A stretch of 64,000 nt of DNA, from positions 3,423,801 to 3,487,800 of the forward strand of contig OZ316891.1 in the NCBI GenBank assembly GCA_973895155.1, read 5' to 3'. How positions within the stretch are numbered: the stretch's first letter is position 1; every line of letters begins with the position of its first letter. The notes beneath the pieces are model-generated. The model did no database searches and was not told the origin of the DNA. It saw nothing but the letters and a program-made list of their open reading frames with translations. The translations under genes and the position numbers were made by a program. The DNA comes from Marsupella aquatica (Eukaryota; Plantae; Marchantiophyta). Of the stretch, positions 1-64,000 are shown in pieces.

Positions 1-82
1 GACCTTATAGTAATCATGTTAGTGCTCGCTGACGACGTTTCAAGTCAAGTGCGTTCCCTTCATGTGTGGGATGGGATTGCAG

Positions 83-18863: not shown

Positions 18864-18958
18864 GATCCAGGAGAAGAAGATCGGACGCGGGGCAGCCTAG
18901 TGACAGAATTATTGCTAGTCACTAGGCTGCCCCGCATCCGATCTTCTTCTCCTGGATC
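18864..18958. repeat. Inverted repeat: 41-bp arms, 13-nt loop, one mismatch
   Basis: GATCCAGGAGAAGAAGATCGGACGCGGGGCAGCCTAGTGAC-agaattattgcta-GTCACTAGGCTGCCCCGCATCCGATCTTCTTCTCCTGGATC. Confidence 0.95.
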
Positions 18959-19311
18959 CTCCCATCCGGGGCCGGGTATGTGGTTCCTTCTGGACTATAT
19001 ATGCCTATGTTAGCAGTAAAGAGCTCATTATCTGTATTGCGCTCCGAATTGACAGTTCTTCCAAGTAGAGTCTTTCACATCTGCCTGTCCGCTCATGTCA
19101 AGGACCCGGGTCTACAAGGCAACCAAAAATCTGCCTCAGAGAGTAGAAGCTTCAGGCACGATATGACCTTGGTGTTGTAGTGGCCTAGTTAATTTCTTTC
19201 AGAGTTTCGGGTACTTGAGAGAGTTTTCCAGAGATTTGTGCTGTCTCCTTGCATACTTTGACAAACTCACAAACGCATTTGGATCCAGAGAAAGTTCAAG
19301 GCAAGTAAGTT

Positions 19312-33981: not shown

Positions 33982-35406
33982 TTAATAAGCCACAAGTATC
34001 TTCCTACCAGTCTTCATAATCCTCACCAGTACAAGCGCAGCCACTGCAGCACAGAAACCAACCCCTACGAATATGATCATGCCCCTATAGTCTCCTTGCT
34101 CCCTGTCAACAAGCAGTCCACCAATCGGAATGCCAGTCAAAATTCCTACAGAGGCAACGGTATATGCTGTGGCCACATATCTTCCAAAGTTTTTGGTGTG
34201 GCACAGCTGCCCGATGCAAGCCGGACCCAGAGTATGAACGCTCCCGGATGTAAATCCGAAAGTAAGTGCGAAGATCACAAGTCCTGCTTTAGTCTGTCCC
34301 ACAATTAGCCAAACCCCCAGGACAGACACGATGATCAGGACCGTCATCAGAATGAGACTGTTGAAACGCCCAATTCTATCAGAGATGAGGCCTGGAAGCC
34401 AGCGCCCGAAGATGGACCCCAGGTTCAAGAACACCAGCATCTGGGAGGCGAAGGCGGAGGAGAAGCCATGGTAGAGCGCGTAGGAGCTGATGTAGACAGT
34501 CGGAACGAAGAAAACCCACCGAAGCAGAAATATGGCCAGGACAGTCACTGCAAAGGCTCGGTCGTCAAAGATGCTGAAAACCAGATTGGCAGTCGCGTTC
34601 TTTGCCGGGGGAAGACGCGAGCGTATGAAAGTGCAGGCGATCACGCAGACGAATAAGTAGATGCAGCCTATAACTCGGGTGCTCCACGCAAAGCCTACTT
34701 TGGGAATCAGATTCTCGAGTAGCAAAGGAAAGATGACGCCTGCAATTGCACTACTCGAGACCGCAATGCCCATAGCATTTCCACGCGCTTTGTGAAAGTA
34801 ATGCCCCACAACGGCAACCGAGGGAGTGTAAAGGAGACACGAGCTTCCGCCTCCCAAGAATGCAAAGACTACCAAGAATTGCCAATAATGGTGACAGATC
34901 CCTATCAGGAACATGGACGAGCACACCCCAAAACTCCCCGCCAGGATGAGCCACTTCGGGCCATGTTTATCGAACAGAGGCCCTATAAAAATGCTTCCTC
35001 CGAAAGCCAGGAACAAATAGATGCTGAAAATCCAACCGATTGCTTCAGGGCTGGACGAGGAGAGCTGGTGCGTGCTGAAATACGACTTGAAGGCCCCGAA
35101 GTTATTCGCCGTCCCGAGAGCAGCCATGTTCCCACAAAATGCACCGAGAACGACAAGCCAAGCGCCCAAGCCGCCTTCCGGGTACGTGGTGACCTCATCT
35201 TTCTCATCTTTCTCATCTTTCTCGGGTGAGGTTGGAATTGCAATTGCGCACTTCGAGCAGAGTGTTGGCCAATTACTTTTCGCCCTTAAATCTTCTATGC
35301 CATCCGGTCCCGCCTTAAGAACTGGCACTGAGAGTACCCATGATTTGTTGCGTGCACCCGACTCAAGTACATCGGCAGGTCCTCCCGGGACTTCTGGTCC
35401 TCCCAT
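33982..35406 (-). CDS. MFS monocarboxylate-porter family transporter of fungal Mch/Mch5-like type, intronless, 474 aa
   Basis: YPEGGLGAWLVVLGAF, GPLFDKHGPK, VVGHYFHKARGNAMG, GFAWSTRV, GSIFGRWLPGLISDRIGRFN; about 12 hydrophobic helices; uninterrupted ORF. Confidence 0.9.
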   Translation of the reverse strand: MGGPEVPGGPADVLESGARNKSWVLSVPVLKAGPDGIEDLRAKSNWPTLCSKCAIAIPTSPEKDEKDEKDEVTTYPEGGLGAWLVVLGAFCGNMAALGTANNFGAFKSYFSTHQLSSSSPEAIGWIFSIYLFLAFGGSIFIGPLFDKHGPKWLILAGSFGVCSSMFLIGICHHYWQFLVVFAFLGGGSSCLLYTPSVAVVGHYFHKARGNAMGIAVSSSAIAGVIFPLLLENLIPKVGFAWSTRVIGCIYLFVCVIACTFIRSRLPPAKNATANLVFSIFDDRAFAVTVLAIFLLRWVFFVPTVYISSYALYHGFSSAFASQMLVFLNLGSIFGRWLPGLISDRIGRFNSLILMTVLIIVSVLGVWLIVGQTKAGLVIFALTFGFTSGSVHTLGPACIGQLCHTKNFGRYVATAYTVASVGILTGIPIGGLLVDREQGDYRGMIIFVGVGFCAAVAALVLVRIMKTGRKILVAY

Positions 35407-37299
35407 TTGTATTGGAAGTATATCGAGCAGAATCTGTTCACTGGCGACTTTTGAGGGTTTACCTGAAGACGAGCCATTGAAAGTTCAACAACCCGAAGTA
35501 CAAAGTGAGCTTTTAGATACTAATGTGCTTAGTAATACTTTCAGTGTTGAAATGTAGAACTGTGGAAGCTTATGAGTGCCAATCGGGACAACAGACAAAA
35601 TCGTTGATAGTTTTTGAGGGAGGGCAACGCTCGAGTGCACAGGTGCAAATGTCTAACACAAACGGTTTCCGCATGGGGATGCCTGGTCTACAGTGAATAC
35701 CCGGACATATATAGATTAGGAGGAAGCTCTCAAGAGATATATAGACAAAGTATACCCACATCGGGATGCCTGATCAATATTCAACATCAGACCTCGACGA
35801 GGAGTTTTCAAAGTGAACGTACAAACAAATTAATTATACGTGAAACCTCCCAAAAGACTCATCTGGAAGCAAGACACAGACATGTACATCTTAAGGACTC
35901 CAATCTCCTCCGTTTAGGGTTTAGTTGATCTTGTTTCTGAGCCAAGATCACAAAGGGCGTGTGAACAACTGATAGATATCCAGGATGAATTAAGTTAGTG
36001 TGGTGGCCACATTCTAGCTTCATCTTGCAGTCGATCTGACCATGCTTGGAGACTGTGACTAGAAAAGCACGATCGAGCCAAGAAACCATGCATAGTTATC
36101 TCAACCAAAACATTATTATAACAAGTTTTGTTCCACGAATGATGATTACTGAACAATTGCTTCAGTTGATCGACTCTGCGGGAAGGAAACTAAGACTGAT
36201 CGACCGGCTAAAATTGCTTCAGTTTACTATGAGGAAATCAACAAAGAACTGATGGGCTACGAACCCGTAAAGTGAATAGGAGAGAATTAGTACGTACCGG
36301 AGTGGTACCGTCGGCGGTTTGAAGTGAAGAAGTCAACAACTGCGGAGAATGCACAGTCGGGAGCAGGACGGTTAGCAAAGAGCGATGAGACAGTGCATCT
36401 GTAAACTAGTGATCCCTTACACACGCACTGATCAGACTGGACCAGAGCGGAAAGGAAAAGGGTGACACAATGTGATGAGCTATGAATGTCAAGTATCACT
36501 TTCATATGTTAGAATGGATTGCTTTAGGTCGACAAGCACCCTGTGGAAAGGAAATAGAGCCTGATCGGTCACGACTATAAAGGGTCAGCCTTTCATACCT
36601 TAGGAACGGTCGAAGTTGAATGTGATATGAGTATTTCTTCGTCTTCTTCGACTCACAAAACCGTTGACGCTGTCGAATGAAATGAATAAGCCAACAACTG
36701 CGAATGACTCCACGTCCGGAGCAGGGATCGGCATGTAGAGGAAAAAGCTGATGAAGAAAGAAATGGAAACGATTGGCTTATACACTTCAGTAGCACGTCT
36801 ATAGACTCGGTCACCCCTCTGTCAAGTTATTTCTACTTCCATACGACCAAGTTTTTCTAGACTGCTTTTTAGGTTTTTGATAAGACCTAGCGGAATCATG
36901 TACGCTAGACCTATTTCGACAGAAGAGAACACCATTTCACCCAGAATTGTGTTATGTAGGTTTTTTATTGAGGACTCAAGGCAAAATCATCGATTCTCTG
37001 TCGCGTCCCTATCTGTTAGCAGTCTGGATGTCCCCATTTTTTCTCTTAGTAGGGTGTCTCAATAGTGAGCTGTGGGGCCATCCAATAAAACCGGCTTACA
37101 GGACCCTAATAAGGGAATTCAAATATGGGGGGAGGGAGGTTTGACCTGCCCCAAAAGCTAGGGTTTGCTCTAAAGCCCGTTTCAGTTATGCTAACCCTTC
37201 TCCTTCCGGCTCGGTAAGCCCTAGCTGGTTATCAACATTGGTGATACTTAGATAACGCACCCGTTGGGCAGCTTGTTGTTAGCATTGCAAAGTTGTTTA

Positions 37300-39359: not shown

Positions 39360-40246
39360 ACATAATCTGACCAATCATCCTCCGCTTCTTGTTCTGCACA
39401 ATCAACACAATCCACATTAAATGCAGTCAAACTAGCAGGTTAATAATAAAAGCCATATACAAACAATGCACACTCAATCTAATAGTTAGTACAGGGAATT
39501 ACCTGTAGCTTCAATATCTTCACCTCAATGGAATCCTTAAATAGATATAAACCGTACCACAGTGACTGGTTTTGTCTGCCCAATTATACGATGTGCCCGG
39601 TCCACAGCTTGGTCTTCCACACAGGGATTCCATCACTCGTCTACTAGAATTACATGATTTGCGCAAGTTATGTTGAGACCTGTAGATGTTGCCATCAAGG
39701 AAAGCATAATGATGCTCACCTACACAGTCCATAGAAAACATTGGTCATTACAATTATAATGTGAAAGTATACATGAATTAGCTGTCTGAAAATGGACAAA
39801 TTTGACTCACCTCAGGGGTCCTACTGAACATGTGAAGCACCTTGTCTCTCTTTTTTGGGGCCATTGACCCATCAATCCTTCCGAACTGAAGGCCAGCCTT
39901 TGTGAGGTCTGGCTCAAGCAAGTCCAGACATTTTGTCCATTGCAAAAACACAAGAGCCTTCTCTCTTGGATGACATTGTTCCTTGGTGAGTGGCTTTGTG
40001 TATCTTTTGGGATACCCTTCAAGTATGTCATGACTGCATCAAATTTGGCAGAAGAGGTTGCCGTTGGAATGGTTTGAATAAACTTCAATCCATCTAGGAC
40101 GTCACCATCACCCTTGGTGCTTGACAAGTCTACGTTCTTGTCGAGTTTTGCAACGCCCACCTTTCTCCTACAATTGGGGAACTTGCAAGTGAAGATTTCC
40201 TTCCGCCCTCAAACCGCGCAAGACCCACAGTTAAAGTGGCCACAGC
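39360..40246 (-). pseudogene. RAD5/RAD16-like SNF2-RING helicase pseudogene, 3' part (RING C-half + HELICc)
   Basis: CGHFNCGSC, SSAKFDAVM, EKALVFLQWTKCLDLLE...[43 protein letters not shown]; in-frame stops and a frameshift. Confidence 0.85.
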
Positions 40247-40279
40247 CACTAGTAGAAACCGGGGGGTATTTAGACCCCA

Positions 40280-40640
40280 TTAAACGACTATTCAATACCG
40301 TATAGGACTTGGAAACGACTGGGAAGGACTCTAGTCCTTTATAGGACTGCGAGTCGTATGTTTTGTTACTATAATCAACTGAGTCCTTTATAGAACTGGT
40401 TTATAAGTCGTTTAATAGACTGGATTTTCAGTCTATTTTAGTCTTTGTGTGGGTAGCTTTGGTGAGTCTTTTTCAGTCTTTTATGGGCTGCGATGGTGAG
40501 TCGTTGGGAACAACTCAAAAGGTTATGGAGGGTAGTCTTTAAATATACTTTGTGGGTTTATAAAATGACTAAAGTAGACACTTTGTGGGGGTTTATAAAA
40601 CGACTAAAGTAGACACTTTGTGGGGTATGTACAAGTCTTT
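40280..40640. repeat. CACTA subterminal repeats (GACT/AGTC motifs, short tandem duplications)
   Basis: Dense GACT/AGTC motifs in both orientations; similar cluster at about 57110-57270. Confidence 0.7.
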
Positions 40641-41147: not shown

Positions 41148-44100
41148 TCACTGCAGACTAACACACTCTGATGGCCAGAGCACAAGAGATCCTACTGCAT
41201 CTGCAATTATTTCTTGAGGTGGATCATCGTCTCTATTCGGAAATGGCAAATTACAATCAGATACAATCATTGTAGTCAACAACACTACTACATGGTCATC
41301 CGGGACCACTTTGCCATGGAATTTAGCATGATCCGGTCGCAAAATGCCTGTACCCACACATACCTGCGAGTCATTCTCCCATGATAGAAGATTATGGACT
41401 GGCTCTGCTGTGGCTATCACCTCCACCTTACCCTGGCTGTTTTTCTTGGCTTTCCTGGGTGGCTTATACATGACATTATTCATACCTTGGTTGCGAGTCA
41501 TGACTTTGGCACGAGTGTTTTGTGCTGGTGATCGAGAATTGGCTACACTCTTCTTCAAAGAATCTGCATCCATATTTGACACTTCCGATTGTGTAGCAGG
41601 ATTTCCCTGCGACATCATCTCAGTATCTGCTAACATTGTACTTGCTTCAATTGAAGCATCTACAATCTTACTTGCATCCAATGTTGCTCCCAAGTTTCGA
41701 CGTCGCTTCACCCTGCTCCCACTTGGTTGAGAGTCTGTCAACTCTGCATCAACTACAATTCAATGCATTGTCCAACATAAGTGAATCACTCATCACATGT
41801 GCGCCATGTACATGTCACCATCCACAAAGTTGTCACTATCTCCTTACCATTATGAACAGCCTTCTTCCCCTTCTTTGCCATTGCCATATCCTCCATGTCT
41901 GCTTCTGCTGATCAATAAACAGACCACAAGATTCAAGTTCAATCTATTAACCACTGAATTGTTTCTCAACAATGGTAGGAGAGGAATTTAAAGCATCAGC
42001 TTACCTGATACCTCCTTGGCTATGGTCACTGAGGCACTGGGCACATCTTTTTCATTGCTCTTTGAATCACCTGATACATCAATCATGATGTCACTTCAAT
42101 TCCCAGTTTATCCAACCAATTCTTACAGAAAAGATTACCTCCAACCGGCTTAAGCTTCACAAAACTCCATGCACTTTTCAAATGTAATGTACTGGATCAT
42201 AGCAGGTTACCTGTCTCAGCAACCTTTTTGCCATTCTGCTTACCGATTACAGGGTCCAGGTTCTCTGCCTCCACTCTTCCTGCATTCAAACCATTCACTC
42301 AATTCATGAAAACTTACTTCTAACATTTGAACATAGGACACAATGAACAATGGGCCTCTCTTGTTTCAAAATCCTCATTGCATACCTGTGTCAGATTTGC
42401 CAATTCCCTTTTTTGTTAACAAGGGCACACTTTGTACAATGTTGCCCTCATTGTTTGGTTGGGAACCACCCAATTTTTCAATCACAAGCTTGAAATTAGA
42501 TTCCACTGATGCAAGAAGGTTCGCTACAGATGCCTCCACAATATCCAAACGATCAGCCAATTTACTTTCCACTCGAGGGAGTCCACACTCTAATGACTTC
42601 AACCGTTCAGACATCTTTGTGAGAGTTGTAACAGTTCCCTGTCATAACACAGTTTACATATCTCAGATAATTGTCCCCAAGAACTGGTTGCTTACTTCCT
42701 ACTACAATTCTTTCTGATGCTCAAGGCCAAATAGTCACAGAACATATAGAATTACAACATAATCACCTGTTTGGAAGTCACACTTGTCACCTCACTCCTT
42801 TGTTTCATGAACTCCTCTCTCACTTCTTGTGCTGATGGTTCTTCACCTGTCAATTTCTTCTGCAGTCCACATCAACATACATATGAATGAAACCAAGTGT
42901 TGATTGTCAATGAAAATGTAATAATGGTAGCAAGATGATAAGTTTGAGGCTTACTATTAGGCATGTCACTGCCTTACCAATTGTTCTTTCACTGGAGCAT
43001 AACTTCCTCTCCCAGCCTGTGAAAGGTGTTTCACTTTGCCTCGAGCATTTGACATCAGTTCACTCTTGCTCTGTCCAGCCTCCGACATGAACCCTTTGAT
43101 TAACCGTGTCCATTGATCCAGTTCCAATGATGGGGGTGGTGGCATTCTCCTGTTAGAACCATTGTCTATCCACATCCTTTTCAACCTATGCCTCTCTTGT
43201 TTCAAAATCCTCATTGCATAATCTGATATGCAATCTTCAACTGGGCCCTTACCATCATTACCAACATAGTCCCACCGTTCAAGAATGTCCTTGCAGATAG
43301 CAGCCCAATCAGCTTTGTTCTGACTCCTAAACTCTGTAATGCTCAAATCTAACCAACGCAATACTTCTCCTCTTAGGTCAGAATGCCAACGGTTCTTACC
43401 ATCACATGTGGGAGTTATCCAACCTTCGGAATTCACTTCTACTTTACCAAATTTGTTACTGTCTCCTGCCTTGGTACTCCCTGAAGCGCTACTAGGTGTC
43501 CCTCCACGGCCTGGTGTCCCCCCACGGCCTGGGGTCCCTCCACGGCCTGATCTCCCCCCACGGCCTGGATTGCATTGTCCAAACCTCCCTGGAGTCCCTG
43601 CACATTTACAGGATCCATTTACAGTCACTTACATTAGGTAAGTATGAATCATAAATCCTGCTGCCAAATATACACTGGACTTCAGAGCAATTCTGCAATG
43701 ACCAAGTTACCTCTCCCTTGGCGCATAGATGGTTCTGGACCACCTGTCCTATTGCTTTGTCTTGATGAATTAGGGCCGTTTCTCCCGCCTGTGAATGATT
43801 GCCGCCTATCTGAACGTGGATGGCCTTTGTTGTTTTCGTGATTGTCCCAATCAGAGTCTGCATACCAACAGGTACATGCCACACTCATGGACCTGTAAGA
43901 TAAACTCTTTGCCCTAGCTACACATCAGATAAGTCCATATTGAGCTAAATCTCTACTACCATCACAAAATCACTAGCACAAGGCACTTACTTGTCCAATC
44001 ATCCTCCTCACCTGTCCATTGCCCTCTGTACCCGTCTCTACCACGCTCTGGGTGTTCATATTCATCCCATCCATCTTCTGCTCCATCATAGTCATCATCA

Positions 44101-44510: not shown

Positions 44511-47500
44511 CTATTGCAAATCATCAACCTCATCATATTCCATTTGCCCAGGTTCATCATATGTCTCTCTCAATGTTAAGGGGATGTAGTCAGTCCCTGC
44601 CCGAGTTGGAAGTACAGTCTCATGACTAGGATGCTCGAATGCAGCATGGTCATCCAAACTGAACTCTACTTTACTTCCATCCATCCGCCTGTTCCGTGCT
44701 TGGCTATGGCATACCACCCTCCAGCCATGTGACTCCTCCACATCTGCAAAGAAAGCCTGTTCAACTTGGCTAGGGAAAACAAAAGGCTCAGACCATTCTG
44801 GTACTCTGGACCTAAAATTGGCCAACAAGAACCCATCATGATCACGCTTCATGGTGGCCCTTGGTCTCTGCCACTCTGATTTCACCCATGATCCCTTCAT
44901 CAATATCACTGGGACACTTGTGTTACCATAATTCAACACCCAAATGTCGGTCAACTCCCCCACGTAACCCATCTTCATCCACCCCCTCTGTTCTTCAGAG
45001 GTTCTCTGCTCAAACACAGAAATCAAACCACAATCATATGATACACAATGGTCACCCTGCTCATCCCTCACTCGATAATGATTTCCATAAGCTCTCATCC
45101 GTTTGTAGGTCAGAATAGACAATCGTGGTGGCACAGATAGAAGATACAAATCCTTCTCCATATCTGGGTGATGTCTACTATGCTCTCGAATTGTCACCCG
45201 AATCCACTGCTCGAACTGTGGGAAGGGATCCTGCTGCCCAGAGTGTGCAGCTTTTTGCATATCATATTCCCTGCAATATGAGGTACAGGCATAGTTAGGT
45301 CTAAACAACACATGACAACCTAAGATCACCCTTGGAATAGACAAGAAGCATCACAACAAAGGCAAGTCAATTCAATCACTCACCTCCACCATGGTTGCAT
45401 AGGCTCTGTGTTTGCCAGCACATATGAATGAGCCTTGTCTCGAATCGCAACAGGCAGCTGAACAACACGTCCCACACCTTCAACAACCTCGCCACTCACT
45501 CCATCATCTTCACCAGATTTCCAAACTCTTGTCATAGCTTCACCAGACCCAGCCATGTACTCTGTTAGGAATCCCAACGTCTCATCCTTAATGTACCCCA
45601 ATGCCATGGAAGCCTCTGGCCTGTAGTATGTTCTCACATGACCTTTCAACAACTTCATGTATCGCTCCATAGGGTACATCCATCTGGTATTGACTGGCCC
45701 ATACTGCCCTAGCTCTTCTACCACATGGATTAGGAGATGAGTCATAACATCAAAGAAAGCAGGGGGGAAGTATATCTCCAAGTCACAGAGGACATAAGCA
45801 GCATCCTGCTTCAACTGCTCCAATCCTTGGGGATCCCACACTTTCACACATATACGGCGAAATACATTGCACAGTCGAAGAATGACATTACGGACTGGTT
45901 TCTGCATGAGACCTCTGAGGCATAGGGGCAGAATGTGCTGCATCAACACATGGTAGTCATGTGTTTTCATACTGCCAAGTTTATTCTTTGTAATATGCTT
46001 CTTGAAGGCACCAGCATAGCCAGAGGGCACTTTCAGACAGCTCAATCTATACAAGAATGTCTTCCATTCATCCTGTGTGCACACATAGGGAGCTTGGAAC
46101 TTGAGAAGTACATTGGGATTGCTTGCATGGGGCTTCAACCAAAGGTGAGGGCGAATCCCCTTCTGTTGCATATCAGCTCGAACTGCTCCTGTATCTTTCT
46201 CACCCGACAAGAACTTCAGCAAGCTCTCACAAATATTTTTCTCAATGTGCATGACGTCCACATTGTGTTTGCTGGGCTCGAATTCCTGCACTCCACAAAG
46301 CAAAGAATTCAACAACAGAAACACTAATTAACCACATAGGAGGATTGTAACCAACATCAATCCACCATTGCTCCAATCTAAAATTGCAATCATACAGGGG
46401 CTGGAGGCTAAGTACATTACCCTCCAGTACTCCAACTCCAAGTCCATCAAGGTCTGTCTTTTCACACCGTGTTTCACCACTGGATCCTCAGGTTCTCGAT
46501 CAGTGGCACTTCTCTTGTCCCAATCAGCCTTCCTGGCTGCCCACCTCAGGACTTGCTCTCTGGTGACCCTCTGTGGTGGGCCACGAAGCTCTGTTTTGTT
46601 GTTGAAGTGTGCAATTTGAGACCGTGTGTGCCTGTAAGGATGATCAACAGGCAGATACCTTCTATGCCCCTGAAATTTCATACTGTGCAGGGCATGCGAC
46701 CACTCACTTGTCACATTTTTCCCACATGGTGTGCACCCCACATAGCCCTTTGTCACTCGTCCAGATATGATGCCATGGCCTGGGTAATCTGCTATATCCA
46801 GCAAACAAATTGCATGCAGTCTAAAGGGGCTGGGTCGAAGAAGCCCCTTCAGAACATCATGGGTTAACACCCCTTCTATCCACAAAGTCTTCCACTCTTC
46901 CACTGCTGGAGCCAACATGATATCTATGAATTGCTCGGTCACAGAAGCTGGTCCAGGGATTAACAGCACCATCATGACAAAAAACCTCTTTGTAGTCATC
47001 CATGGGGGAAGGTTGTAATTTAGCAGCGTAACCGGCCAACATGAATAACGGTTGTTTTTGTCTCCAAATGGGTTTACTCCATCCAGTGATAGACCAAATC
47101 GAAAGTTCCGCTTCTCTGCAGCAAACTGTGGCCACCTCTCATCAACAAATTTCCAATGGTTGGAATCTCCAATGTGACGCTGCAGGCCATCACTGCTCTT
47201 GTTATCAGGAGTCCATGTCATCAGCTTGGAAATGGCAGGGCATCTAAACAGACGTTGTAGTCTAGGAATGAGAGGAAAATGACGAAGAACCTTGGCAGGG
47301 TGTGTACATTTCCCTACATTCTTGTACCTGTGCTTACCACAATGAGGGCATGTCAATTTATCTGCATGCTCTTTGCGAAAGAGAACACACCCATCAGGGC
47401 ATGCGTCAATAGACACATAGTTCAGCCCAAGGTTAGACATCAATTTCCTAGCCTCGTACATATTTTTTGGAATTGAATTACCATCTGGTAACACATTTCG

Positions 47501-48211
47501 GCGCAGGAAGGTCAACAACTCTGTCACAAATATATTGGGAACATTGTGATTGCCACAGATGTTCAACAACAACACGACAAAACCCAGCTTGGAGCAGTTC
47601 GACCCCTCGTAGATAGGAATGCAAGCTTCTTTGATGTGTTTTGGGCCCCCAAACACCCACTCCCTCTCTGCTGCACCTTCCCCAATGTCAAAGTCAGGTT
47701 CAGCTTGGCCGTCGCCAATGTGTGGCTGCGGTTCATTGTCCTCTTCTGATTCCACTGTGTCGTAAAAAGCATCAAGGTCTTCAAAAATCTCTTGAACCAT
47801 TCTTGGGACATCCATCCCACCGTCCTCAGTGACTGCCTCTGCATCTCCATCTTGGTCATCCACGTTCTCATGTTGGACCCCAGGACCATCCTCTGCACAG
47901 TCTATGTCCTGCTCTACGTAGTCTCTACGCCTAGCTGTATTAGAATCCACAAAGTCAGCTCTCCACTCTTCATCAGAGGAGTCTTCTTCTGCTGGTACAT
48001 TCCAAACCCTCCACCGAGGGTGCCTTTCATGCCGCAGCAGGTGAAGGTGCACAGTGTTCAAACTCAATGACTTGAATCCTTGGCACTGTGTGCATGGGCA
48101 TCTCATCCTCCTACTCCTACCTTGGGCGGCCCGGGCTTGTTCACGCATCCACAATTTAGAATCATGATGCCTAATCCTAAATGGGTTGTGAAGAGGCAAC
48201 CTTGGAGCCAT
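44511..48211 (-). CDS. CACTA TNP2/TnpD transposase, 1150 aa; exons 48211-46421, 46285-45384, 45270-44511
   Basis: MRCPCTQC, IDACPDGC, RFGLSLDGVNPF, YSCWPV, YNLPPW, DYPG, HNVDVMHIEKNICES, FPPAFFDVMTHL, WMYPMERY, EPFVFPSQVEQAFF. GT-AG introns join an open frame with no stops. Confidence 0.93.
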
Positions 48212-48538: not shown

Positions 48539-49072
48539 CTACCACATCAAATACGGATACCAATCTTGTTGTCGATGCCACTCAGCCCTGAGGTACTCAG
48601 GCATGTACATTAAGTCATCAAGGTCTAAACCCTGCTCATGCCATGGTGGTCTTCGATCCGTGCCTACAAGCAGTGGCAGCAGTGCCCTCCATGGTGCACA
48701 TGTTGCTACCAAGTCCCTCCACTGGGTACTAATTAGTCTATATTTGCAGATATCTTGTGCGCCAGACACCACAAGAACCCTCGGCCAGACATGTGTAAGA
48801 ACTATATCATCTGCCAAATCAGGCAACAAGGAACCACCTACAGCATCGTGCTTGTCTAACTCATCTGCTGAAAAGTAAATGTCCTCTTCCGACTGTGCAT
48901 CCTCATTCACCACAGCATTCACAACACATCCAAGGTCTGCAGGCATTATCTCGGATGGAGCTACACTCTGTCTGGTTACCAATCCACACAAGTAAGCCCA
49001 AGCAGTAGCCATGCACGATGCAACCCGTAGGAGGACCCTACACAGGGCCTGACGGTCTGGAAGAGGCAGCAT
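48539..49072 (-). CDS. CACTA cargo: F-box-like protein lacking a substrate-binding domain
   Basis: LLPDLADDIVLTHVWPRV...CKYRLISTQWRDLV matches the F-box consensus (LP.LPDD......RV....R.VS..WR.LV); start codon uncertain. Confidence 0.55.
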   Translation of the reverse strand: MLPLPDRQALCRVLLRVASCMATAWAYLCGLVTRQSVAPSEIMPADLGCVVNAVVNEDAQSEEDIYFSADELDKHDAVGGSLLPDLADDIVLTHVWPRVLVVSGAQDICKYRLISTQWRDLVATCAPWRALLPLLVGTDRRPPWHEQGLDLDDLMYMPEYLRAEWHRQQDWYPYLMW

Positions 49073-49248
49073 ACCCACCAAAGTCTTCAGCCAAACAGAG
49101 CCCAGCAAGTAGATTCACAGTCACACCCCACGCAGCAGGAAACAACAATCACTTCAACTGCGACCAACCATGACAAGATGAGTTAGTTCAAGGATCACAT
49201 TTATTACAAAATTGTGATTTATACAAAAATATGAGGGACTCCTACTCC

Positions 49249-50097
49249 TCACTCTCTCCCACCTTTGCTAAGCATACATCTCCGCTGAATCTTGGAGGGC
49301 CAGGCCTCAAAAATATCAAAGTCCCAAGCATTCTGTCGCTTCCCTCTAGCTGCTGATTCCAGAAGCCAATCAGGGGAAAGCACCCAAAGATTGTTGTTCA
49401 TGACAAAATCACGCACTGTTGTCTTAAAGATTTTTCTGCATATTTTCATGTATGACAGACCTACAACATGAGTGGAGGTTTCTGTTAGACTCTCCTCCAC
49501 TGTCCCACCTAGCTCAACAACTATAGACTTGTACAGTCTGCACTTAGTCTCCCCAATTCCTTCTTCTGCAAATACCACACTGAACCCCTTCATAATGGTA
49601 TTTCTCTCCTTGCCATGCTCATTCAATATAGCATCTGCACGCATAGGATGGTGTCCTATGTTGACAACAGGTCCATATTGGACAGAAGCAAAGTTGGGTT
49701 TCTCTGCCGCTGCTTCATAGGCTTCCTTTTCAGCCAAAGCCTCTGCAGTGGCCTCCTCACTCTCCCACAACTCATATTGCTCAGTACTCTGTACACACCT
49801 ATGTTTAACAGAATCGGTCAGCCAAGAGACTTCAACTACTTTTAGACCTTGGTTGGTAATGGCAGAATCAATGAAGGACCATGACCACTTGTTCATCACA
49901 TCCAGCCATGTCCCCGCAACAACATGTGTAGTCTGTGGAGTGATGTCCTTGACTTCAGTCCCATGGAACTCTGAGAATCGTTTTTGTACGATTGGCCAAC
50001 TCACTTGGGTGAACCCATAGTGGCCAGGAATCAAAATGGCTTTGATTCCAGCCAACAGAGGCGGGTGGTCAACATTTGTACGTTTCCTAGAGGCCAT
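49249..50097 (-). CDS. CACTA cargo: tandem BRCT-domain protein (DNA polymerase lambda-like BRCT)
   Basis: Two repeats, each with G....THVV...W(L)..S: TTHVVAG...VEVSWLTDS and LGGTVEESLTETSTHVVG...LSPDWLLES; intact intronless ORF. Confidence 0.8.
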   Translation of the reverse strand: MASRKRTNVDHPPLLAGIKAILIPGHYGFTQVSWPIVQKRFSEFHGTEVKDITPQTTHVVAGTWLDVMNKWSWSFIDSAITNQGLKVVEVSWLTDSVKHRCVQSTEQYELWESEEATAEALAEKEAYEAAAEKPNFASVQYGPVVNIGHHPMRADAILNEHGKERNTIMKGFSVVFAEEGIGETKCRLYKSIVVELGGTVEESLTETSTHVVGLSYMKICRKIFKTTVRDFVMNNNLWVLSPDWLLESAARGKRQNAWDFDIFEAWPSKIQRRCMLSKGGRE

Positions 50098-50697: not shown

Positions 50698-51378
50698 TCA
50701 AAGCCAAGAAATGTGATCTCTCATGGGAGTGTGCAAAGTAGGATCTATGGCATGGCGATGACAATAGAAGATCCATCGATCAACACCATGTGCAGAGTGA
50801 TCATAGATGTGTCTGTCACAAGCATAGCCTTCTGCTTGACGCTCCTTCAAACAATGAAAGTGCCACATGGTGGGACACCTAACACAGTGGACTATGTCCA
50901 CCCAGAAATCTTCATCGTGCTGACCACATGCCTTGCACTTATGAAGTGGGCAAGCTGTGGCAAGATCGGGCAAACATGAAAAACAAAAGAACCTCACACA
51001 ATATCTGTCAGGGCATTTCCTAACAAGTGGTGGAGCATCAACAGAGCCCTCATAAGACCCCAACTTCCCACACTGTGCACACTTAGCCTGCTTCTCCAAA
51101 CAATCAGTGCACATCCAGCCTCCTTGGTGTGCTGACGGGAGGCCCACCCCTGGACAGTTGTTTTCTGCAGCAAGGTCAGACTCCGGGTTGAGGTGGAAAT
51201 GCCTCATGCAAGGGCCCTCACATATGGCTAAGTCACCACCATCGTCACAAATGGCACAACAATGAGCTGCCTTCTGGAAAATCTGACTTGCGGAGAAGTT
51301 ACTACCATCTGGCCCAACTACACCTGTGTTGCTCACCTCTGTCCCCCGCTTCTTGGCTCGGATTTTAGGGCGTGCCAT
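50698..51378 (-). CDS. CACTA cargo: stand-alone EDM2-type composite PHD-finger protein, 226 aa
   Basis: CAICDDGGDLAICEGPCMRHFH...CPLHKCKAC...CVRCPTMWHFHCL...FYCHRHAIDPTLHTPMRDH follows the EDM2 PHD pattern including the terminal YCxxHxIDxxLxTPxRDH; basic N-terminus MARPKIRAKKR. Confidence 0.85.
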   Translation of the reverse strand: MARPKIRAKKRGTEVSNTGVVGPDGSNFSASQIFQKAAHCCAICDDGGDLAICEGPCMRHFHLNPESDLAAENNCPGVGLPSAHQGGWMCTDCLEKQAKCAQCGKLGSYEGSVDAPPLVRKCPDRYCVRFFCFSCLPDLATACPLHKCKACGQHDEDFWVDIVHCVRCPTMWHFHCLKERQAEGYACDRHIYDHSAHGVDRWIFYCHRHAIDPTLHTPMRDHISWL

Positions 51379-52047
51379 GCCTACGCATGAGACAGATAGT
51401 ACAATTTAGCAGAGTGCACAGACAATACAATTTAGTGCAGTGTACAAAAAGTACAGTGTAGCATATAGACTAGAGTGGCAATTGCTACTGCAATGAAATG
51501 TTCACACACATGTGCAGAGTAGACATACTTTTTGGTTTGTTGAGCCCACACTAAAAACTGATCCCCTCGTACAATAGCTCCACCTACACCTCAATTTTGT
51601 GGCTATGATTCACCAAAGGAGATCTGCAACAAGATTTAATGCATTTGAATCACATATAACAGTCGTGACATGTAAAACAGGCATTTTTTGAACAGGATTG
51701 GTATCAAGCAGTGTGATCAGGGTTGTAATTTATACATCCTAAATAGGCTATGATAGTGAATGAGACAAATAAGTTAGGCATAAATCACTTTTTCCAGGTT
51801 ATCACATGGCCCATTAATTCCAGTCTTTGAAAGGAGACTTTTAAGTGAGCTTGCTAGCCTCTTAAATTAGGATATTGTACTTAGTGCAGCCATAATAGGA
51901 TAAGTTATGTACTGTTGACCCTAAACCCTGGACCCAAAATTGGTCATAATTCAAAATCTTAAGTAAATATCCTCTCTGTTCAAGTCAAAGTGTTAAGTTA
52001 TAGGTCAATGGTCTCTGGTTTGTGCATGCGGTGTGACAAGTGGTCCT

Positions 52048-52497
52048 CTAGAGCGTGTGATCCAAACATGTGTAGACACCAAAGTGACCGGTGGTGGGGT
52101 CTGGGAGGGCAGGACAAGTGACATTGCCAGGCACACTGCAGGATGGCGAGTGGTTCCAGATGATACATTGTGCTCTGTGAAAAAACCGACATCCAAGAGA
52201 ACGGTCATCCAACTCTAGGCCAGAAGCCCTACAGGCAGGACAGTCATATTGGCAACTGTGCACACACCCTTGGGCCCTAATTTGTGGCGGGTCATGTACA
52301 AGAGACAGAAATACCAAGGATGTTGGGAAGGGTGGAGAAGCAGGTACAGGCCGACTGTAGTTGTTCCTGGCAACAACTGGGTACTCAAAGTACCATGCAG
52401 ACTGGGCTGGAAGGATCCCAAGTCTGACATACTCAAGGCGCAACATCTCTGCCTTGCGTGCAAGCCGCACATGTTCAGCGTTGCGGGTCCTCACCAT
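52048..52497 (-). CDS. CACTA cargo: possible Cys/His-rich small protein, 149 aa
   Basis: ATG-initiated ORF co-oriented with other cargo; CVHSCQYDCPAC...CRFFHRAQC...HSPSC; no family recognised. Confidence 0.3.
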   Translation of the reverse strand: MVRTRNAEHVRLARKAEMLRLEYVRLGILPAQSAWYFEYPVVARNNYSRPVPASPPFPTSLVFLSLVHDPPQIRAQGCVHSCQYDCPACRASGLELDDRSLGCRFFHRAQCIIWNHSPSCSVPGNVTCPALPDPTTGHFGVYTCLDHTL

Positions 52498-56035: not shown

Positions 56036-57303
56036 CAAGTTGGGAATGTGGCGGGATCCCTAAACACATCAACAACCTGCTAAGTGTAAGCAAAGTTGCA
56101 TAACCGGCTTGTTCCCTTCCAACGGTCGCGCGACTCGGGTGTCCAAACGGTACTGCAAGCGGTACAGGCCCCTAGCTTGGGATACCCTTACCAAAGTCAC
56201 TGGTGTTGCCGACATGGTAACGGCAAGATTATCCTGACCCTCCATAAACCCCCTCCATTCACTCAAGTGTTGTGAGTGACAACTTAGTGTAGTGTCGCTA
56301 AACAAATACTTTGGCCTTAGCAAATATCTGTGGTGATCGAACTTCATTAAACCAAACCTCTTTTGGTCACAAATAAGGCCATTTAATGAGTGATGCCCCT
56401 TGTCATCACCCTCTTAATTTATGCAATTACCCCTCCTGAACACAATTGAACGTTGTCCAAATTGCCTACCCTCATGAATAATTTGTCAATTATCTTTCCC
56501 GACATATATGATGTCAATGGACATGATGGGGAACATGATGTCAATGGACATGATGCCAACGATCCAATGGTTCCTAAACCCCCATCCCCTTAACATGCAA
56601 CCCCCGACCCTTGACATCAAACCCCCCTAAACCCCCTTTAGTGAAAACCCAGCCACCCCCTAGCCTTGACATATAAACCCCCTAAACGTCTTCACAACTC
56701 GACTGTGGCCAGACTATCTTTGCAATGCCAAGGGCCATTTTTAGAGTGCATGCCGCTTGCAAGCTCAGGCTCTCAAGATCCTCCCAAGGCAGCAAACAAG
56801 TTAGGGTCCCTAAACATGTTCCTTTACCCTAAACCATTGCGTCACTATTTCAATCGAGTGTTCTTTGCCTGGACAACCCCCTAACCCTAAACCCACACCC
56901 CCTTGAGACCGGTACAAATCTACCTTTGTGCATCTTGGCCTTTTATTGATGGAGTTAGTAATCGATCCCTCCGTAGTCCACCCTCCATGAACCTCACTCC
57001 AAAACCTTTTTTGTCACAAATAAGGCCATTTATTGAGTTATGCCCCTTGCTATCTCCCTCTTTACAGAATTACCCCTCCTCAACATAAGTGAACATTACC
57101 CATGATGTGCTAGACTATTCACCGTTCACAAAGTAGCAAGGTTACTTCTCATAGTCTTTTAGTGAACCATAAAACACTAATAGTCTTTTGTAGTCTTCAA
57201 CAAAACTGGTGCAATGGGTGCGAGTCGTTTCAAGTATGGAAAAAGGACTTAGTGAGCTTAGTCCTATAAGGTATGGTCTAAATTGCCCCGGTTTCTACTA
57301 GTG

Positions 57304-57925
57304 AGCGAGAAATCTGTATTGGACCTCCAACATAATTTGACTGCACAAACAAACGTCCAATGTTACCATTATGAACACCATGCAGGTAGGAACAATCGCT
57401 CGACCAAATTGCCATTCGTACCCCAATACCCCACTCATACCCCAATACCCCACCGCACTTAGAGCTAAGATACTTACCTTGCATTCTGTACAAGCACTTT
57501 GCATGTTGGCTGATTGGAGATCTGCCAATAATTTGATTTGATCATGTTGATTGAGAACATCTCTTAGGAGCGACGCCGTCAGAGTTCTTCTTATCTTCAG
57601 TTGCTTGCAGGAAAGAAAGGCTAGGGTGCACTGCATATTGACGTAAACGGAGAAGTACGGACAACATATTTTGATCGGGAGCCTCCTCGATGCCCTCTAT
57701 ATATTTCTACAACAGGAGAAAGAATACAAGAAAATTAAGTAGGTTAGGATCTTAGATGGGATGCAAACTGAACAACATTGGGTACGTAGTCACTTCCAAA
57801 GCGCCTTACCCTAAATATTGTAGCAATCTGCTCCTGCATATCAAAATAGGCATCACGTTCTGCTTCAGTCCTCCATTCCACTATTACCACCTGAGAGTGC
57901 TTTACCGGCAACTGAAGAATGCCTG
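57304..57925 (-). pseudogene. RAD5/RAD16-like SNF2-RING helicase pseudogene, 5' part (end of SNF2_N + RING N-half)
   Basis: ILQLPVKHSQVVIVEWRTEAERDAY, NMLSVLLRLRQYAVHPSL, CTEC, GPIQISR; joins 40243 in frame after removing the CACTA. Confidence 0.85.
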
Positions 57926-60816: not shown

Positions 60817-61370
60817 GAGAAATTTGGTGTCGGGGCCGCTAGAGTCACCGTGTTATCCCCTCGGGCTTGCTGGAGTGGCGCCGAGTTGCTTGGCGCCTGT
60901 TGAGTCCTACCTCGCGACCATTGATTCAAAGGAGGGTGAGCTTCCTTGTCTTTGGAGCTAATATTCACCGCATTTACCACGGATCGTACTCAGAGAGGTG
61001 GTGCTACCGATGGTGGAGATCGACTTGGCTGAGCCGAGGTAGTGTTGGTGCGATCACAAATGGGTTGGTGCCAGTTGCGGCTGGTGGAGGCGCCATGAGA
61101 TTCAAGTAGTCCTTGGGGAAGTCGAGTGATGTTAGGATAGGAGTCTCACTTGTTTGAGCAGGGCCAAACTGACAATTGATGGAGGCTTGAACCTGGGTGG
61201 GAATATGGTCGTAATGGTGTGACTGCAAGTCTATTGTGCCCGGGAGATGGTAAACCTTGTCCGAAAGCCGAAGAAGTGCTTCCCAAAATCCGACGTACTT
61301 CTCGTCGACAAAGAAGTATTTGCTGTTTTTGTCGACTTGGCAAAGCTCACTCTGAAAAGGGAGGGCAAAG

Positions 61371-61716
61371 GGTCAATTGCAAGCTTGAGAGGGGCAAAAA
61401 GGATATCCAGTTTCTCCACCAAAAGGATTCTAGTCCTTCCCAATTTACAAGGGGTGGACAAGGTGTTACACCAAATGGCTAGGATTAGTTTGTTGAGATT
61501 GGATGGTGAGATCTTGCATGCCAAGTCTTTGGAAGTGTGTCCAGGCTTTTAGGAAGTCCCAATCTTCTTGGAAGTGTGCACAACAATTTTGGAAGTGTGT
61601 CAAACCTTTATGGAAGTGGTGTTCAACTAAATCTTTATGATCTTTGAGTCCTTTTTCTCTCCTTTTTGAGCTAATCCTTTTTGCATCCTTTTCCCCCCTC
61701 AATCTTGCAATTGACC
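61371..61716 (+). mobile_element. MITE family A, diverged subfamily, 346 bp, TSD AAAG
   Basis: AAAG|GGTCAATTGCAAGCTTGAG ... CTCAATCTTGCAATTGACC|AAAG; body alignable with 11666-12034. Confidence 0.88.
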
Positions 61717-62731
61717 AAAGTCGTCGTTATAGTGATTTCGGCCGGCTAAACGAATGGCTCTCTCGTAAGCTCGTTTGGTCTCGTATTGGCGCGGGTTGAC
61801 TTTGGCTAAGGACTTGGCTAAGTGACTTCCTACGAATAGGAATTGCAACCAACATCAAAGGGCCAAACTAGACAATATCGTGACAGACATCCAGGAGTGA
61901 CGGTGGGCAACTAAGGAGGGACAAAGTGGCTGAGGTCGAAGCTAGTGCACGGAATGGAGTGTGAGTGTAATGCGAGAGAATGGCCCTCCTTTTATACTCT
62001 GAGGGCTCATCGTCCGACCGGCCCCTCCTCCCTTCCAATAGGCCGAGATTTTCACGCTCATAGTGTACTAGCCACTCGCGGGTCCGGTTCAGAGCGTGTC
62101 AGCAGCCACCTCCAAGAATTTGTTATACGGACCCAAGTGTCCCCTTACACGCTCGTAACCTGGGAGTATGAATGACGCTCCGCCACCATCCCGAACGTAA
62201 ATGCCTCTTATTAACTAATGATTCCCTAGTCATAAGTACTACCTACTTAGTGTCGTTATGCTAATAACTACGACCTACGGTGCCCCTAAAGGGGCGCGCT
62301 AAGCACGACTAGGCCGAATCAATCATTAACCGCCGTGCTGGTAGCGTCACATAATCTAAAGTATAAGTCTTTGGGTTGGATGAACCTTACAGCTCCAGAC
62401 CACTCAAAGAACAACAACATAAACCTAATTTGGACCGGTATGTCATACCATATCCACTCACAATCGTCTGGGCGAATGGCCCTCTTGTTGATCATCCCTG
62501 TTGCAGCTAAAATAATACAAAGATTTTCTAAACCCATAGCTTCATTAATTTCAATAGCATTCTGGGATACTACTTCTATTCCGTGAATACACTTTAGAAA
62601 TTCACGCTCACCTTCTTAAGTTGTTCCAACTTCTTCTTGTGCACCGGATCAGCTAGTGCGCATGCCTCCTTCAATAATTTAGCAACCATGGCCGCCTCAT
62701 CTCTCAAGCTCTGTACTTCCAGATCCCAGGC

Positions 62732-63100
62732 GGTCAAGTGCAAGCTAGAGGGGTACTGAAAGGATCTCCATTTTCTCCACCAAAAGGACATAGGTCCTTG
62801 GTAAAAGCAATCACTAGAGGACAAAAAGACCAAAATGTTACATGGAATGGCCAAGATTGTTTTGGTGAGATTGAAAGGTAAGATCTTGCATGCCAAATCT
62901 TTGGAAGTGTGTCCACATATTTCGGAATTTAAGAAGAGTGCCCAATCTTTTTGGAAGTGTGCACAATCTTTTTGGAAGTGTGCCCAACCTTTTTGGGAGT
63001 GTGCTCAGCTAAATCTTAATGACATTTATACTCCTTTCACTCTCCTTTTTGAGCTAGTCCTTGGGGACTCCTTTGGTACCCCTCTAGCTTGCTTTTGACC
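62732..63100 (+). mobile_element. MITE family A, 369 bp, flanks do not form a TSD
   Basis: Near-identical to 11666-12034; left flank AGGC, right flank TCTA. Confidence 0.9.
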
Positions 63101-64000
63101 TCTAGCATTTGAGACTTTGAAGCTTTCCTTATATGTCCTTCAAAGATCGATAAAAGGACTTGTCACGCAACGAGTCACATCATTTCAGGACTCGAAAGGA
63201 CTCTAAAACTTGCATTTTAGACAATGAAATTTTACCAAGGCATGCATACTAATAGAATAATCTTATATTTGAAAACTCAAATATTGACACACACTAAACC
63301 TTTATGTATAGGACAAAAATAATCAGTAATTTTGGCTTATTTAGGGCCATCAATAATAGGATCCCTTAAAAAAGATAAAAACTTGATTTATCTACATGGT
63401 GAGGTAGGTTACACCATGTAAAATAGTCTTGTGAAAAAATTAGACTTAAATGTCTTGAGATAAAATCATGATGAAGCTTTTTCCATGTTACAAAAGTCAT
63501 TTTTCACTAAAAAAACATGTTTTTGAGTCCTGAAAGTGGTTCCTGTGAGGTACACCCAATTGTGAATGAGGCCATTTCAGCTTCTAACATCTTTGAAACT
63601 TCCTTTGTTGAGTCCGTTGTTGAAGACCCTAGCATCTGTGGTCCAAGGACCTTGTCTGCATTCACTTGATACATAGTTTCAATCATTCTAGTGCATTGTA
63701 AACAACAGAATAGATTCAATCATTTAATGTTTTTGACTGATGACTATAATGTCCTATAAAACTAGGCCGGAATGATAGATAGTTCTCTATCATTTTATTG
63801 TTAAAAAGTTAGACTCCTATTTAAGTAATTTCCCCAATCACATTAATTGACTTGGTTTTGCAGTGTCTAGTGGGCTTGCACAATAGTGTTAATTATGCAC
63901 TCTTGTGTACATAGCATTGTGTGTGTATTATGAATGTTGTTTTATGTCTTGAATGGTGTATATCAATGTGAGTTGTGTATGGATGTGTGTACTCATGAAA

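What the first reader, a model, noticed from the sequence alone, without database searches (positions are those of the whole stretch)
50698..51378. Stand-alone EDM2-like composite PHD finger with NLS encoded by a DNA transposon
Seen: a 226-aa ORF consisting almost entirely of the EDM2-type PHD cluster, from CAICDDGG to TPMRDH, with a basic leader. It lacks the other EDM2 regions such as the C-terminal methyltransferase-like domain. Known: EDM2 acts with ASI1/IBM2 and AIPP1/EDM3 to allow full-length transcription over heterochromatic introns and to modulate TE silencing. Inference: it could let the 17-kb element be transcribed through its own heterochromatin, act as a dominant-negative of host EDM2, or guide integration.
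Basis: partly seen in the sequence, partly recalled or inferred. Interest (0 to 1): 0.8.

Follow-up and report, generated by a model that had tools for sequence, protein, structure and literature searches.

The report
Transposon reader protein with histone-mimic tail
A complete plant jumping gene carries its own small, conserved zinc-finger gene related to the chromatin reader EDM2, and the protein begins with a stretch resembling the tip of histone H3, so it likely acts as a histone look-alike that would help the element resist being switched off.

Summary
Observation confirmed. Window 50698-51378 (-) is an intact 226-aa ORF: a basic leader plus an EDM2-type triple-PHD cassette (24 of 24 zinc-ligand positions filled; AF2 pLDDT 89). 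It lies inside a complete 17,057-bp CACTA element (perfect 18-bp TIRs, AGC target duplication, intact 1150-aa transposase). It is not a stray captured fragment: 31 stand-alone homologues were found, the 19 rows put in the tree form one clade (100/99), and variants among copies are enriched for synonymous changes (17 of 40; 9.7 expected) with no stop or indel listed in the ORF. It is not EDM2: RFD, acidic and methyltransferase-like regions and a PHD2-3 insert are gone, and a His ligand is Cys. The 'NLS' reads better as a histone H3 1-9 look-alike: 24 of 29 leaders carry [AST]-R-x-K, mostly followed by Ala7 and a basic residue 9; only 1 of 5000 reorderings of the H3 residues fits as well. Best reading (inferred): a chromatin adaptor or decoy that helps the element against silencing. 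Not shown: expression, histone binding, transposon context of the homologues, exact origin in the EDM2 tree.

The parts
50698..51378 (-). 226-aa ORF: H3-tail-like leader plus EDM2-type triple PHD cassette
51349..51375 (-). Residues 2-10 (ARPKIRAKK), in register with histone H3 residues 1-9; fits the M-z-R-x-K H3-mimic rule
51381..51382 (-). AG two bases before the ATG, after a pyrimidine-rich stretch: possible splice acceptor (5' leader intron inferred)
   Evidence: no transcript data
51100..51258 (-). PHD1 (C41-C93), C4HC3 with the long EDM2-type loop; acidic run before it is lost
50941..51081 (-). PHD2 (C100-H146); His ligand replaced by Cys132 in 22 of 22 family rows; C135-C143 linker 7 aa against 12-43 aa in 50 non-family rows
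50752..50937 (-). PHD3 (C148-H209), C4HC2H
50704..50730 (-). C-terminal TP-x-RDH-x-x-W motif shared with EDM2, followed by the stop
40247..40264 (+). CACTA terminal inverted repeat (3' end of the element relative to its genes); AGC at 40244-40246
57286..57303 (-). CACTA terminal inverted repeat (5' end); AGC at 57304-57306
40282..40605 (.). Subterminal cluster of AGTCBTTT, 8 of the 24 window matches
   Evidence: motif picked by eye from this region
57153..57249 (.). Subterminal cluster of AGTCBTTT, 4 of the 24 window matches
44511..48211 (-). TNP2/TnpD-type transposase, three exons (48211-46421, 46285-45384, 45270-44511), 1150 aa without a stop when spliced at GT-AG sites; Transposase_21, DUF4218, DUF4216
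   Evidence: splicing predicted
41148..43628 (-). TnpA-like region; weak Transposase_24 match (E 0.014) in 42966-43628; exon structure not worked out
49249..50097 (-). Second cargo ORF, 282 aa, two BRCT stretches
   Evidence: PF00533 E 9.1e-14
48539..49114 (-). Open frame with a weak F-box match (E 0.082)
52048..52497 (-). 149-aa Cys/His-rich ORF with a basic start, no credible Pfam match

Best explanation
This is an intact, conserved accessory gene inside a complete CACTA transposon, and its product likely works as a two-ended chromatin adaptor: the EDM2-type PHD cassette is predicted to dock on histone tails, while the N-terminal H3 look-alike would act as bait or decoy for host enzymes and readers of the H3 tail, helping the element resist silencing. 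Shown: the ORF, its place in the element, the zinc ligands, the clade, purifying selection among copies, and the sequence match of the leader to H3 1-9. Predicted: the fold. Inferred: initiation at this ATG and Met removal, histone binding by the cassette, recognition or methylation of the leader by host proteins, and benefit to the element. My odds per step: functional protein 0.9; leader is a true H3 mimic 0.65; role against silencing rather than another role 0.5.
For: Intact element and transposase. All 24 ligand positions Cys/His in the query and in 11 of 21 aligned homologues. AF2 mean pLDDT 89, pTM 0.83; fold matches are PHD cassettes, many solved with H3 peptides. Clade of 19 rows, 100/99. 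Of the 40 variants listed in the ORF (31 more not shown), 17 synonymous against 9.7 expected from the same mutation types (P 0.005), 0 stops, and the 3 listed indels lie outside the ORF. Leader: 12 of 29 have M-z-R-x-K, 12 more have [AST]-R-x-K a few residues in; among these 24, position 7 is Ala in 18 and position 9 Lys in 13 or Arg in 6, positions not used to pick them. H3 1-9 (sequence) scores 498 against a permutation mean of 319, sd 32; 1 of 5000 permutations reaches it, and it beats the 33 other 9-mers of the H3 tail. P0157 matches H3 at 7 of 9 positions. PHD-only EDM2 paralogues nested among flowering-plant EDM2 also start M-A-R-x-K (P0031, P0043, P0079, the only 3 of 133 non-family proteins; L001, L003), a likely second origin. 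PHD1 keeps acidic 45 and 54 and aromatic 88 in 21 or 22 of 22 rows, which align with AIRE PHD1 (role of these positions in H3 binding recalled). Precedents: VANC and TnpA anti-silencing, RAG2L PHD, viral and cellular histone mimics.
Against: No binding, expression or functional data. The 29 leaders are related, so the permutation result reflects one inherited motif, not 29 trials. A MAR start is also found in full-length EDM2 of liverworts, a lycophyte, Mesotaenium and Chlorella, so part of the match may be inherited. Positions 3, 5 and 6 mostly differ from H3 (Pro 12, Val 7, Lys 14 of 24), and 5 of 29 leaders lack the motif. In 12 of 24 the motif is not at the N-terminus, which would hinder canonical PHD binding that needs the free Ala1 (PMC8166343). 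PHD1 has lost the Asp three residues before the first Cys (Asp in 89 of 128 non-family proteins, Ala/Pro/Thr in 27 of 27 family proteins), so H3 binding by the cassette may be changed or lost. The AG before the ATG allows an upstream coding exon, which would make the motif internal. Transposon context is shown only for this copy; homologues sit on contigs of 0.8-5.5 kb whose neighbours I could not see. 15 of 31 homologues are cut or frame-shifted.
Confidence: 0.42

Rival explanations
1. The leader is a built-in brake: it folds back into the protein's own PHD pocket, as the BAZ2B linker does, and the released cassette would guide the transposition complex to chromatin with a given mark, as RAG2 PHD does.
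For: Best-matching window begins 25-46 residues before the first Cys, a reachable distance. The acidic run before PHD1 was replaced by the basic leader. The AF2 model keeps residues 5-11 out of its lowest-confidence segments, with a bridge at residue 7 (block pLDDT 49, weak). Precedents: PMC5663869 abstract, PMC10629977 passages.
Against: Half of the motif-bearing leaders are N-terminally extended. No link to the transposase was seen. One insertion site only.
Confidence: 0.22
2. A mini-EDM2 that recruits ASI1/AIPP1 homologues so that the element's long, same-strand gene array would be transcribed through its own heterochromatin.
For: Cassette and C-terminal motif are EDM2-type; all element ORFs lie on one strand over about 11 kb; the AAE complex promotes distal polyadenylation over heterochromatin (PMC7472560 passages).
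Against: RFD, acidic and methyltransferase-like regions and the PHD2-3 insert are absent. It does not explain the conserved leader. Which part of EDM2 binds AIPP1 could not be read (papers not held).
Confidence: 0.13
3. The cassette is a selected reader or protein-binding module, but the leader is only a basic import signal grown on an inherited MAR start; the H3 likeness is chance.
For: MAR start in 9 long EDM2-type proteins among 133 non-family proteins. Leader is lysine/arginine-rich. Positions 3, 5, 6 differ from H3.
Against: Only 4 of 29 leaders match the classical NLS consensus. Order and spacing, not composition, carry the match. Ala7 is kept across proteins about 40% identical while the following linker varies freely.
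Confidence: 0.15
4. Dominant-negative competitor of host EDM2.
For: Reader module without the other EDM2 regions.
Against: 35% identity and remodelled surface; edm2 loss in Arabidopsis mostly increases H3K9me2, though its effect on single TEs goes both ways.
Confidence: 0.05
5. A neutral captured host fragment (Pack-CACTA type) with no function.
For: CACTA elements capture gene pieces (PMC13317346 passages); 15 of 31 homologues are cut or broken.
Against: Single uninterrupted frame, family-wide start and stop, ligand retention at 33-82% identity, synonymous excess, family-specific fixed changes.
Confidence: 0.03

Closest known systems
Arabidopsis EDM2 / EDM2-like plant proteins (AAE complex)
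   Same: Same triple atypical PHD cassette in the same order, and the same C-terminal TP-x-RDH motif; best-scoring long relatives.
   Different: No RFD, acidic, methyltransferase-like or proline-rich regions; PHD2 His to Cys; PHD2-3 insert deleted; basic H3-like leader; encoded by a transposon; about 35% identity.
NSD1/2/3 PHD1-3 cassette
   Same: Best solved-structure sequence match for the family profile (NSD2 651-801, E 5.5e-12); Pfam NSD-type PHD models.
   Different: No SET or PWWP domain; NSD-like proteins score far lower than EDM2 (about 1e-9 against 1e-20 to 1e-24) and lack the EDM2 C-terminal motif.
RAG2L of RAG-like transposons; Rehavkus PHD
   Same: DNA transposon that encodes a PHD finger, in RAGL as a second gene beside the transposase; SpuRAG2L-B PHD binds H3K4me2 (PMC10629977, PMC6446971 passages).
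   Different: Other superfamilies, animal hosts, PHD attached to a kelch domain or to the transposase; no histone-like leader in the passages seen.
VANC (VANDAL MULEs) and TnpA (Spm/CACTA) anti-silencing proteins
   Same: Extra transposon-encoded protein that counters silencing; TnpA is from the same superfamily.
   Different: Those bind DNA motifs and lower DNA methylation; this protein has histone-reader folds and no recognised DNA-binding domain. The element also has its own TnpA-like region.
H3 N-terminal mimics (H3TMs such as VRK1, PCLAF), G9a ARKT, influenza NS1 ARSK
   Same: Meets the M-z-R-x-K sequence rule; likeness extends to positions 7 and 9.
   Different: Those are host or viral proteins; here mimic and PHD reader share one small transposon protein; binding untested.

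Membership tests
EDM2 / EDM2-like proteins | Two and a half to three atypical PHD fingers in tandem | tested here: met
EDM2 / EDM2-like proteins | C-terminal N6-adenine methyltransferase-like (ELP) domain | tested here: not met
   ORF stops 17 residues after the last ligand; same stop across the family; feature from PMC7529245
EDM2 / EDM2-like proteins | N-terminal RFD domain and acidic regions | tested here: not met
   No PF12047 in the ORF; mean 1.4 acidic residues in the 12 before PHD1 against 4.9; an unseen upstream exon is not excluded
EDM2 / EDM2-like proteins | Phylogenetic nesting within EDM2 | tested here: inconclusive
   Family is one clade; placement unresolved: best tree has it on the outgroup side of all EDM2 with support 77/7, and grouping with liverwort-type paralogues is not rejected (p-AU 0.48)
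EDM2 / EDM2-like proteins | Binds H3K9me2-bearing tails; associates with AIPP1/ASI1 | not testable with these tools
   Needs peptide arrays and co-IP
CACTA (En/Spm) transposon | TIRs beginning CACTA and 3-bp target duplication | tested here: met
CACTA (En/Spm) transposon | TNP2/TnpD transposase | tested here: met
   PF02992 E 1.3e-59, DUF4218, DUF4216; 1150 aa open when spliced, three acidic-residue motifs present (motifs recalled as catalytic)
CACTA (En/Spm) transposon | TnpA-like gene and subterminal repeats | tested here: inconclusive
   PF03004 only E 0.014; repeat clusters at both ends
H3 N-terminal mimic (H3TM) | Starts iM-Z-R-x-K with a small Z residue | tested here: met
   Query MARPK; 12 of 29 family leaders
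H3 N-terminal mimic (H3TM) | Binds H3-tail readers, or is methylated at K4 | not testable with these tools
   Needs peptide pull-downs and methyltransferase assays
NSD methyltransferases | SET and PWWP domains | tested here: not met
Classical monopartite NLS | K(K/R)x(K/R) (consensus recalled) | tested here: not met
   0 matches in residues 1-40 of the query; 4 of 29 leaders; other NLS classes not tested

The most novel reading that the evidence does not exclude
An old lineage of plant CACTA transposons encodes a dedicated histone-mimic protein: an H3 1-9 look-alike fused to a remodelled EDM2 reader, which docks on chromatin and lures or soaks up the host's H3K4/H3K9 writers and readers. That would be histone mimicry, known from viruses, used by a transposon as counter-defence, and it would point to a self-regulating H3-like N-terminus in EDM2 proteins of non-seed plants and in the PHD-only grass paralogues.
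Probability: 0.35. Interest if true: 0.9.

Novelty: new variant of a known kind. Interest (0 to 1): 0.74.

Why it matters
Known plant transposon anti-silencing proteins (VANC, TnpA) are DNA-binding and act on DNA methylation. A transposon that keeps a histone reader with a histone look-alike tail would attack silencing at the histone level. The protein is 25 kDa, single-exon and confidently modelled, so the idea is directly testable with peptides, and it offers a compact handle on the EDM2/NSD PHD1-3 cassette, for which no EDM2 structure appeared in the searches here.

Tried and rejected
No whole genome is held, so copies could not be counted or aligned in full. No RNA holder was listed; expression is untested. 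Complex prediction of residues 27-226 with residues 2-31 gave no verdict (score 0.16, mark 0.34, alignments not used); it is no evidence either way. First AF2 run on 6 sequences was poor (pLDDT 51) and was replaced by the 66-sequence run. phmmer of the 22-aa leader against the PDB found 0 matches at E 10, as expected for so short a query. Metagenome scan: 9 loci of 221 candidates; the 8 that could be read are host-type EDM2 or grass-type PHD-only proteins, none of this family. Viral-contig scan: 0 of 121. ESM Atlas gave no answer. Run X8 laid 0 contigs. Summed contig depth was not used as a copy number. The first FastTree (131 of 156 rows kept) placed the family beside streptophyte EDM2; IQ-TREE and AU tests (62 rows, chosen by hand) showed that placement is unresolved, so I dropped any claim on the donor. 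The residue-shuffle test could be passed by any basic cluster, so it was replaced by the permutation test. The BRCT ORF had 0 PDB sequence matches at E 0.01. Literature: nine searches listed no paper on an EDM2-type PHD gene or a histone mimic in a plant transposon; one search found 0 papers with all four terms; the library lacks most subscription papers and Repbase. Lei 2014, Duan 2017 and Tsuchiya 2013 were not held. Earlier findings of the scan: nothing.

Full report
1. Observation. The minus-strand frame 50698-51405 is open from stop to stop and gives, from the ATG at 51378, a 226-aa protein MARPK...DHISWL. Pfam finds three NSD-type PHD models in order, all below curated cut-offs. Mapping to EDM2 gives 24 zinc-ligand positions, all Cys or His. 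AlphaFold2 on a 66-sequence alignment models residues 31-226 at block pLDDT 82-97 (mean 89, pTM 0.83), with the leader largely unstructured. Foldseek and VIA-align return PHD cassettes at the top (PZP domains, NSD PHD-C5HCH; best Z 5.5, rmsd 2.6 over 75 residues to NSD2), modest scores that confirm fold type only. The family profile hits NSD2 651-801 at E 5.5e-12.

2. The element. A perfect 18-bp inverted repeat starting CACTA lies at 40247-40264 and 57286-57303, flanked on both sides by AGC: a 17,057-bp CACTA element. Its genes all run on the minus strand: a Cys/His-rich ORF, the PHD ORF, a two-BRCT ORF, a weak F-box frame, the TNP2 transposase and a TnpA-like region. Two predicted GT-AG introns of 135 and 113 nt give a 1150-aa transposase with no stop, so the copy looks autonomous and young. 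CpG is depleted in the element (observed/expected 0.37, PHD ORF 0.29, against 0.84 in the host glycosidase gene region), as expected for long-methylated DNA (inference). Public contigs show a multi-copy family: 1125 contigs of run X1 lie on 881 bp around the ORF, 423/297/259/146 in the 99+/95-99/90-95/under-90% classes, and depth falls sharply outside the TIRs (not a copy number; X1 may be the window's own source). Run X5, labelled as another organism and study, covers all 30 bins around the ORF and long pieces of the transposase; X6 covers 18 of 30 bins; X8 none. No listed piece bridges ORF and transposase.

3. The family. Three word-index searches and one full HMMER search returned 31 short homologues that I assigned to the family by eye, 33-82% identical in the 21 aligned. 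Those whose sources were shown come from Logan, ENA, JGI or unnamed NCBI records. 16 of 31 span PHD1 to the C-terminal motif in one frame; 15 are cut or frame-shifted, a mixture typical of transposon copies (inference). The 19 rows long enough for the tree form one clade, 100/99. Fixed differences from EDM2: PHD2 His to Cys (22 of 22 family rows against His in 50 of 50 others), a 7-aa linker where others have 12-43 aa, loss of the acidic run before PHD1, and a stop right after H-I-S-W in most. Among the 40 best-supported variants in the ORF (31 more were not shown), 17 are synonymous against 9.7 expected for the same mutation types (P 0.005); none makes a stop (1.6 expected); the one in a ligand codon is silent; the 3 listed indels are outside the ORF. 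This is a selected gene.

4. Origin. The only longer hits in the word-index search are EDM2 of Selaginella and Cynara; in the HMMER search the best long hits are EDM2-type (E 1e-20 to 1e-24), among them Calypogeia, Riccia and Marchantia proteins, and NSD-like proteins follow near 1e-9. The C-terminal motif is shared with EDM2 only. The tree does not fix the donor: the best tree has the family on the outgroup side of all EDM2 with support 77/7, while grouping it with the liverwort-type paralogues that lack the methyltransferase-like domain is not rejected (p-AU 0.48). The capture is old. The host is a plant, likely a non-seed plant (inferred from the nearest named hits; not established).

5. 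The leader. After Met removal the protein begins A-R-P-K-I-R-A-K-K, against A-R-T-K-Q-T-A-R-K of H3 (sequence). It meets the H3-mimic rule M-z-R-x-K, met by 48 human proteins (PMC8166343, abstract, introduction and start of methods read). Of 29 family leaders, 12 have this pattern after a Met, 12 have [AST]-R-x-K a few residues in, and 5 have neither. R2 and K4 are selected by the pattern; positions 7 (Ala 18 of 24) and 9 (Lys 13, Arg 6) are not. Scoring all leaders against H3 1-9 gives 498; 5000 permutations of the same nine residues average 319 (sd 32) and 1 reaches it; the other 33 H3-tail 9-mers score lower. P0157 matches at 7 of 9. The linker behind the motif varies in length and sequence. 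Only 4 of 29 leaders match the classical NLS consensus, and the query does not. Against: the leaders are related; T3, Q5 and T6 are mostly not kept; MAR starts occur in full-length EDM2 of liverworts, Selaginella, Mesotaenium and Chlorella; and an AG two bases before the ATG leaves room for an upstream exon, although a Met at or just before the motif across the family argues for a true start. Grass-type PHD-only paralogues, nested among flowering-plant EDM2, start M-A-R-x-K as well (3 of 133 non-family proteins and loci L001, L003; P0079 named from Eleusine), which suggests the pairing arose twice.

6. Mechanism. I commit to an adaptor/decoy model (0.42): cassette on nucleosome tails, leader presented to host H3-tail enzymes and readers. 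That half of the leaders are N-terminally extended fits SET enzymes and chromo/BAH/Tudor-type readers, which do not need a free Ala1 (recalled), better than a canonical PHD pocket. The brake-and-targeting model (0.22) has precedents in BAZ2B (PMC5663869, abstract) and RAG2L (PMC10629977, passages). Mini-EDM2 read-through (0.13), plain import signal (0.15), dominant negative (0.05) and neutral capture (0.03) follow. None was tested functionally.

7. Comparison and novelty. Transposons with PHD fingers are known (RAG2L; Rehavkus, PMC6446971 passages), as are plant transposon anti-silencing proteins (VANC; TnpA, bioRxiv 10.64898/2026.08.24.746577 passages) and gene capture by CACTA (PMC13317346 passages). 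Nine paper searches (listings and abstract starts) showed no EDM2-type gene and no histone mimic in a plant transposon; the library is incomplete and supplements were not read. Verdict: real feature, new variant of transposon-borne chromatin accessory genes, with a credible histone-mimic reading; interest 0.74.

Noticed in passing
window 49249-50097 (-): The same element carries an intact 282-aa ORF with two BRCT stretches, next to the PHD gene; could link the element to DNA repair or phospho-protein binding.
   Followed up: partly
window 52048-52497 (-): 149-aa Cys/His-rich ORF of no known family in the element; its start (MVRTRN...LARKA) is also loosely histone-tail-like.
   Followed up: partly
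window 50698-51378, residues H39, H194, H222: Three histidines outside the 24 PHD ligands are kept in most family rows; a possible seventh metal site, unexplained.
   Followed up: no
L001:679-1431, L003; proteins P0031, P0043, P0079, P0112, P0138: Grass-type EDM2 paralogues reduced to the PHD cassette, several starting M-A-R-x-K; whether they are host genes or transposon cargo is unknown.
   Followed up: partly
proteins P0006, P0015, P0017, P0019, P0020, P0033, P0038, P0107: EDM2-type proteins of liverworts, Selaginella, Mesotaenium and Chlorella start MART/MARV/MARA, while most flowering-plant EDM2 start with an acidic MASSDD-type sequence; liverworts also have a paralogue ending after the PHD cassette.
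   Followed up: partly
window 33982-35484 (-): Intronless 500-codon frame for an MFS transporter (PF07690 E 2.7e-38), not CpG-depleted; it looks like fungal monocarboxylate transporters (recalled resemblance), a possible horizontal transfer.
   Followed up: partly
window 23-3646 (+): Exons of a host GH3 glycosidase (beta-xylosidase-like) gene.
   Followed up: partly
window 11666-15063 and 61369-63104: A roughly 380-bp repeat in four to five near-identical direct and inverted copies with internal 21-bp units; probably another mobile element family.
   Followed up: no
window 18700-20270 and 28790-30620: A duplicated region about 10 kb apart with acidic repeat ORFs of about 95-aa units, partly inverted.
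   Followed up: no
window 43190-43220 and 42354-42384: A 31-bp exact duplicate inside the TnpA-like region of the element.
   Followed up: no
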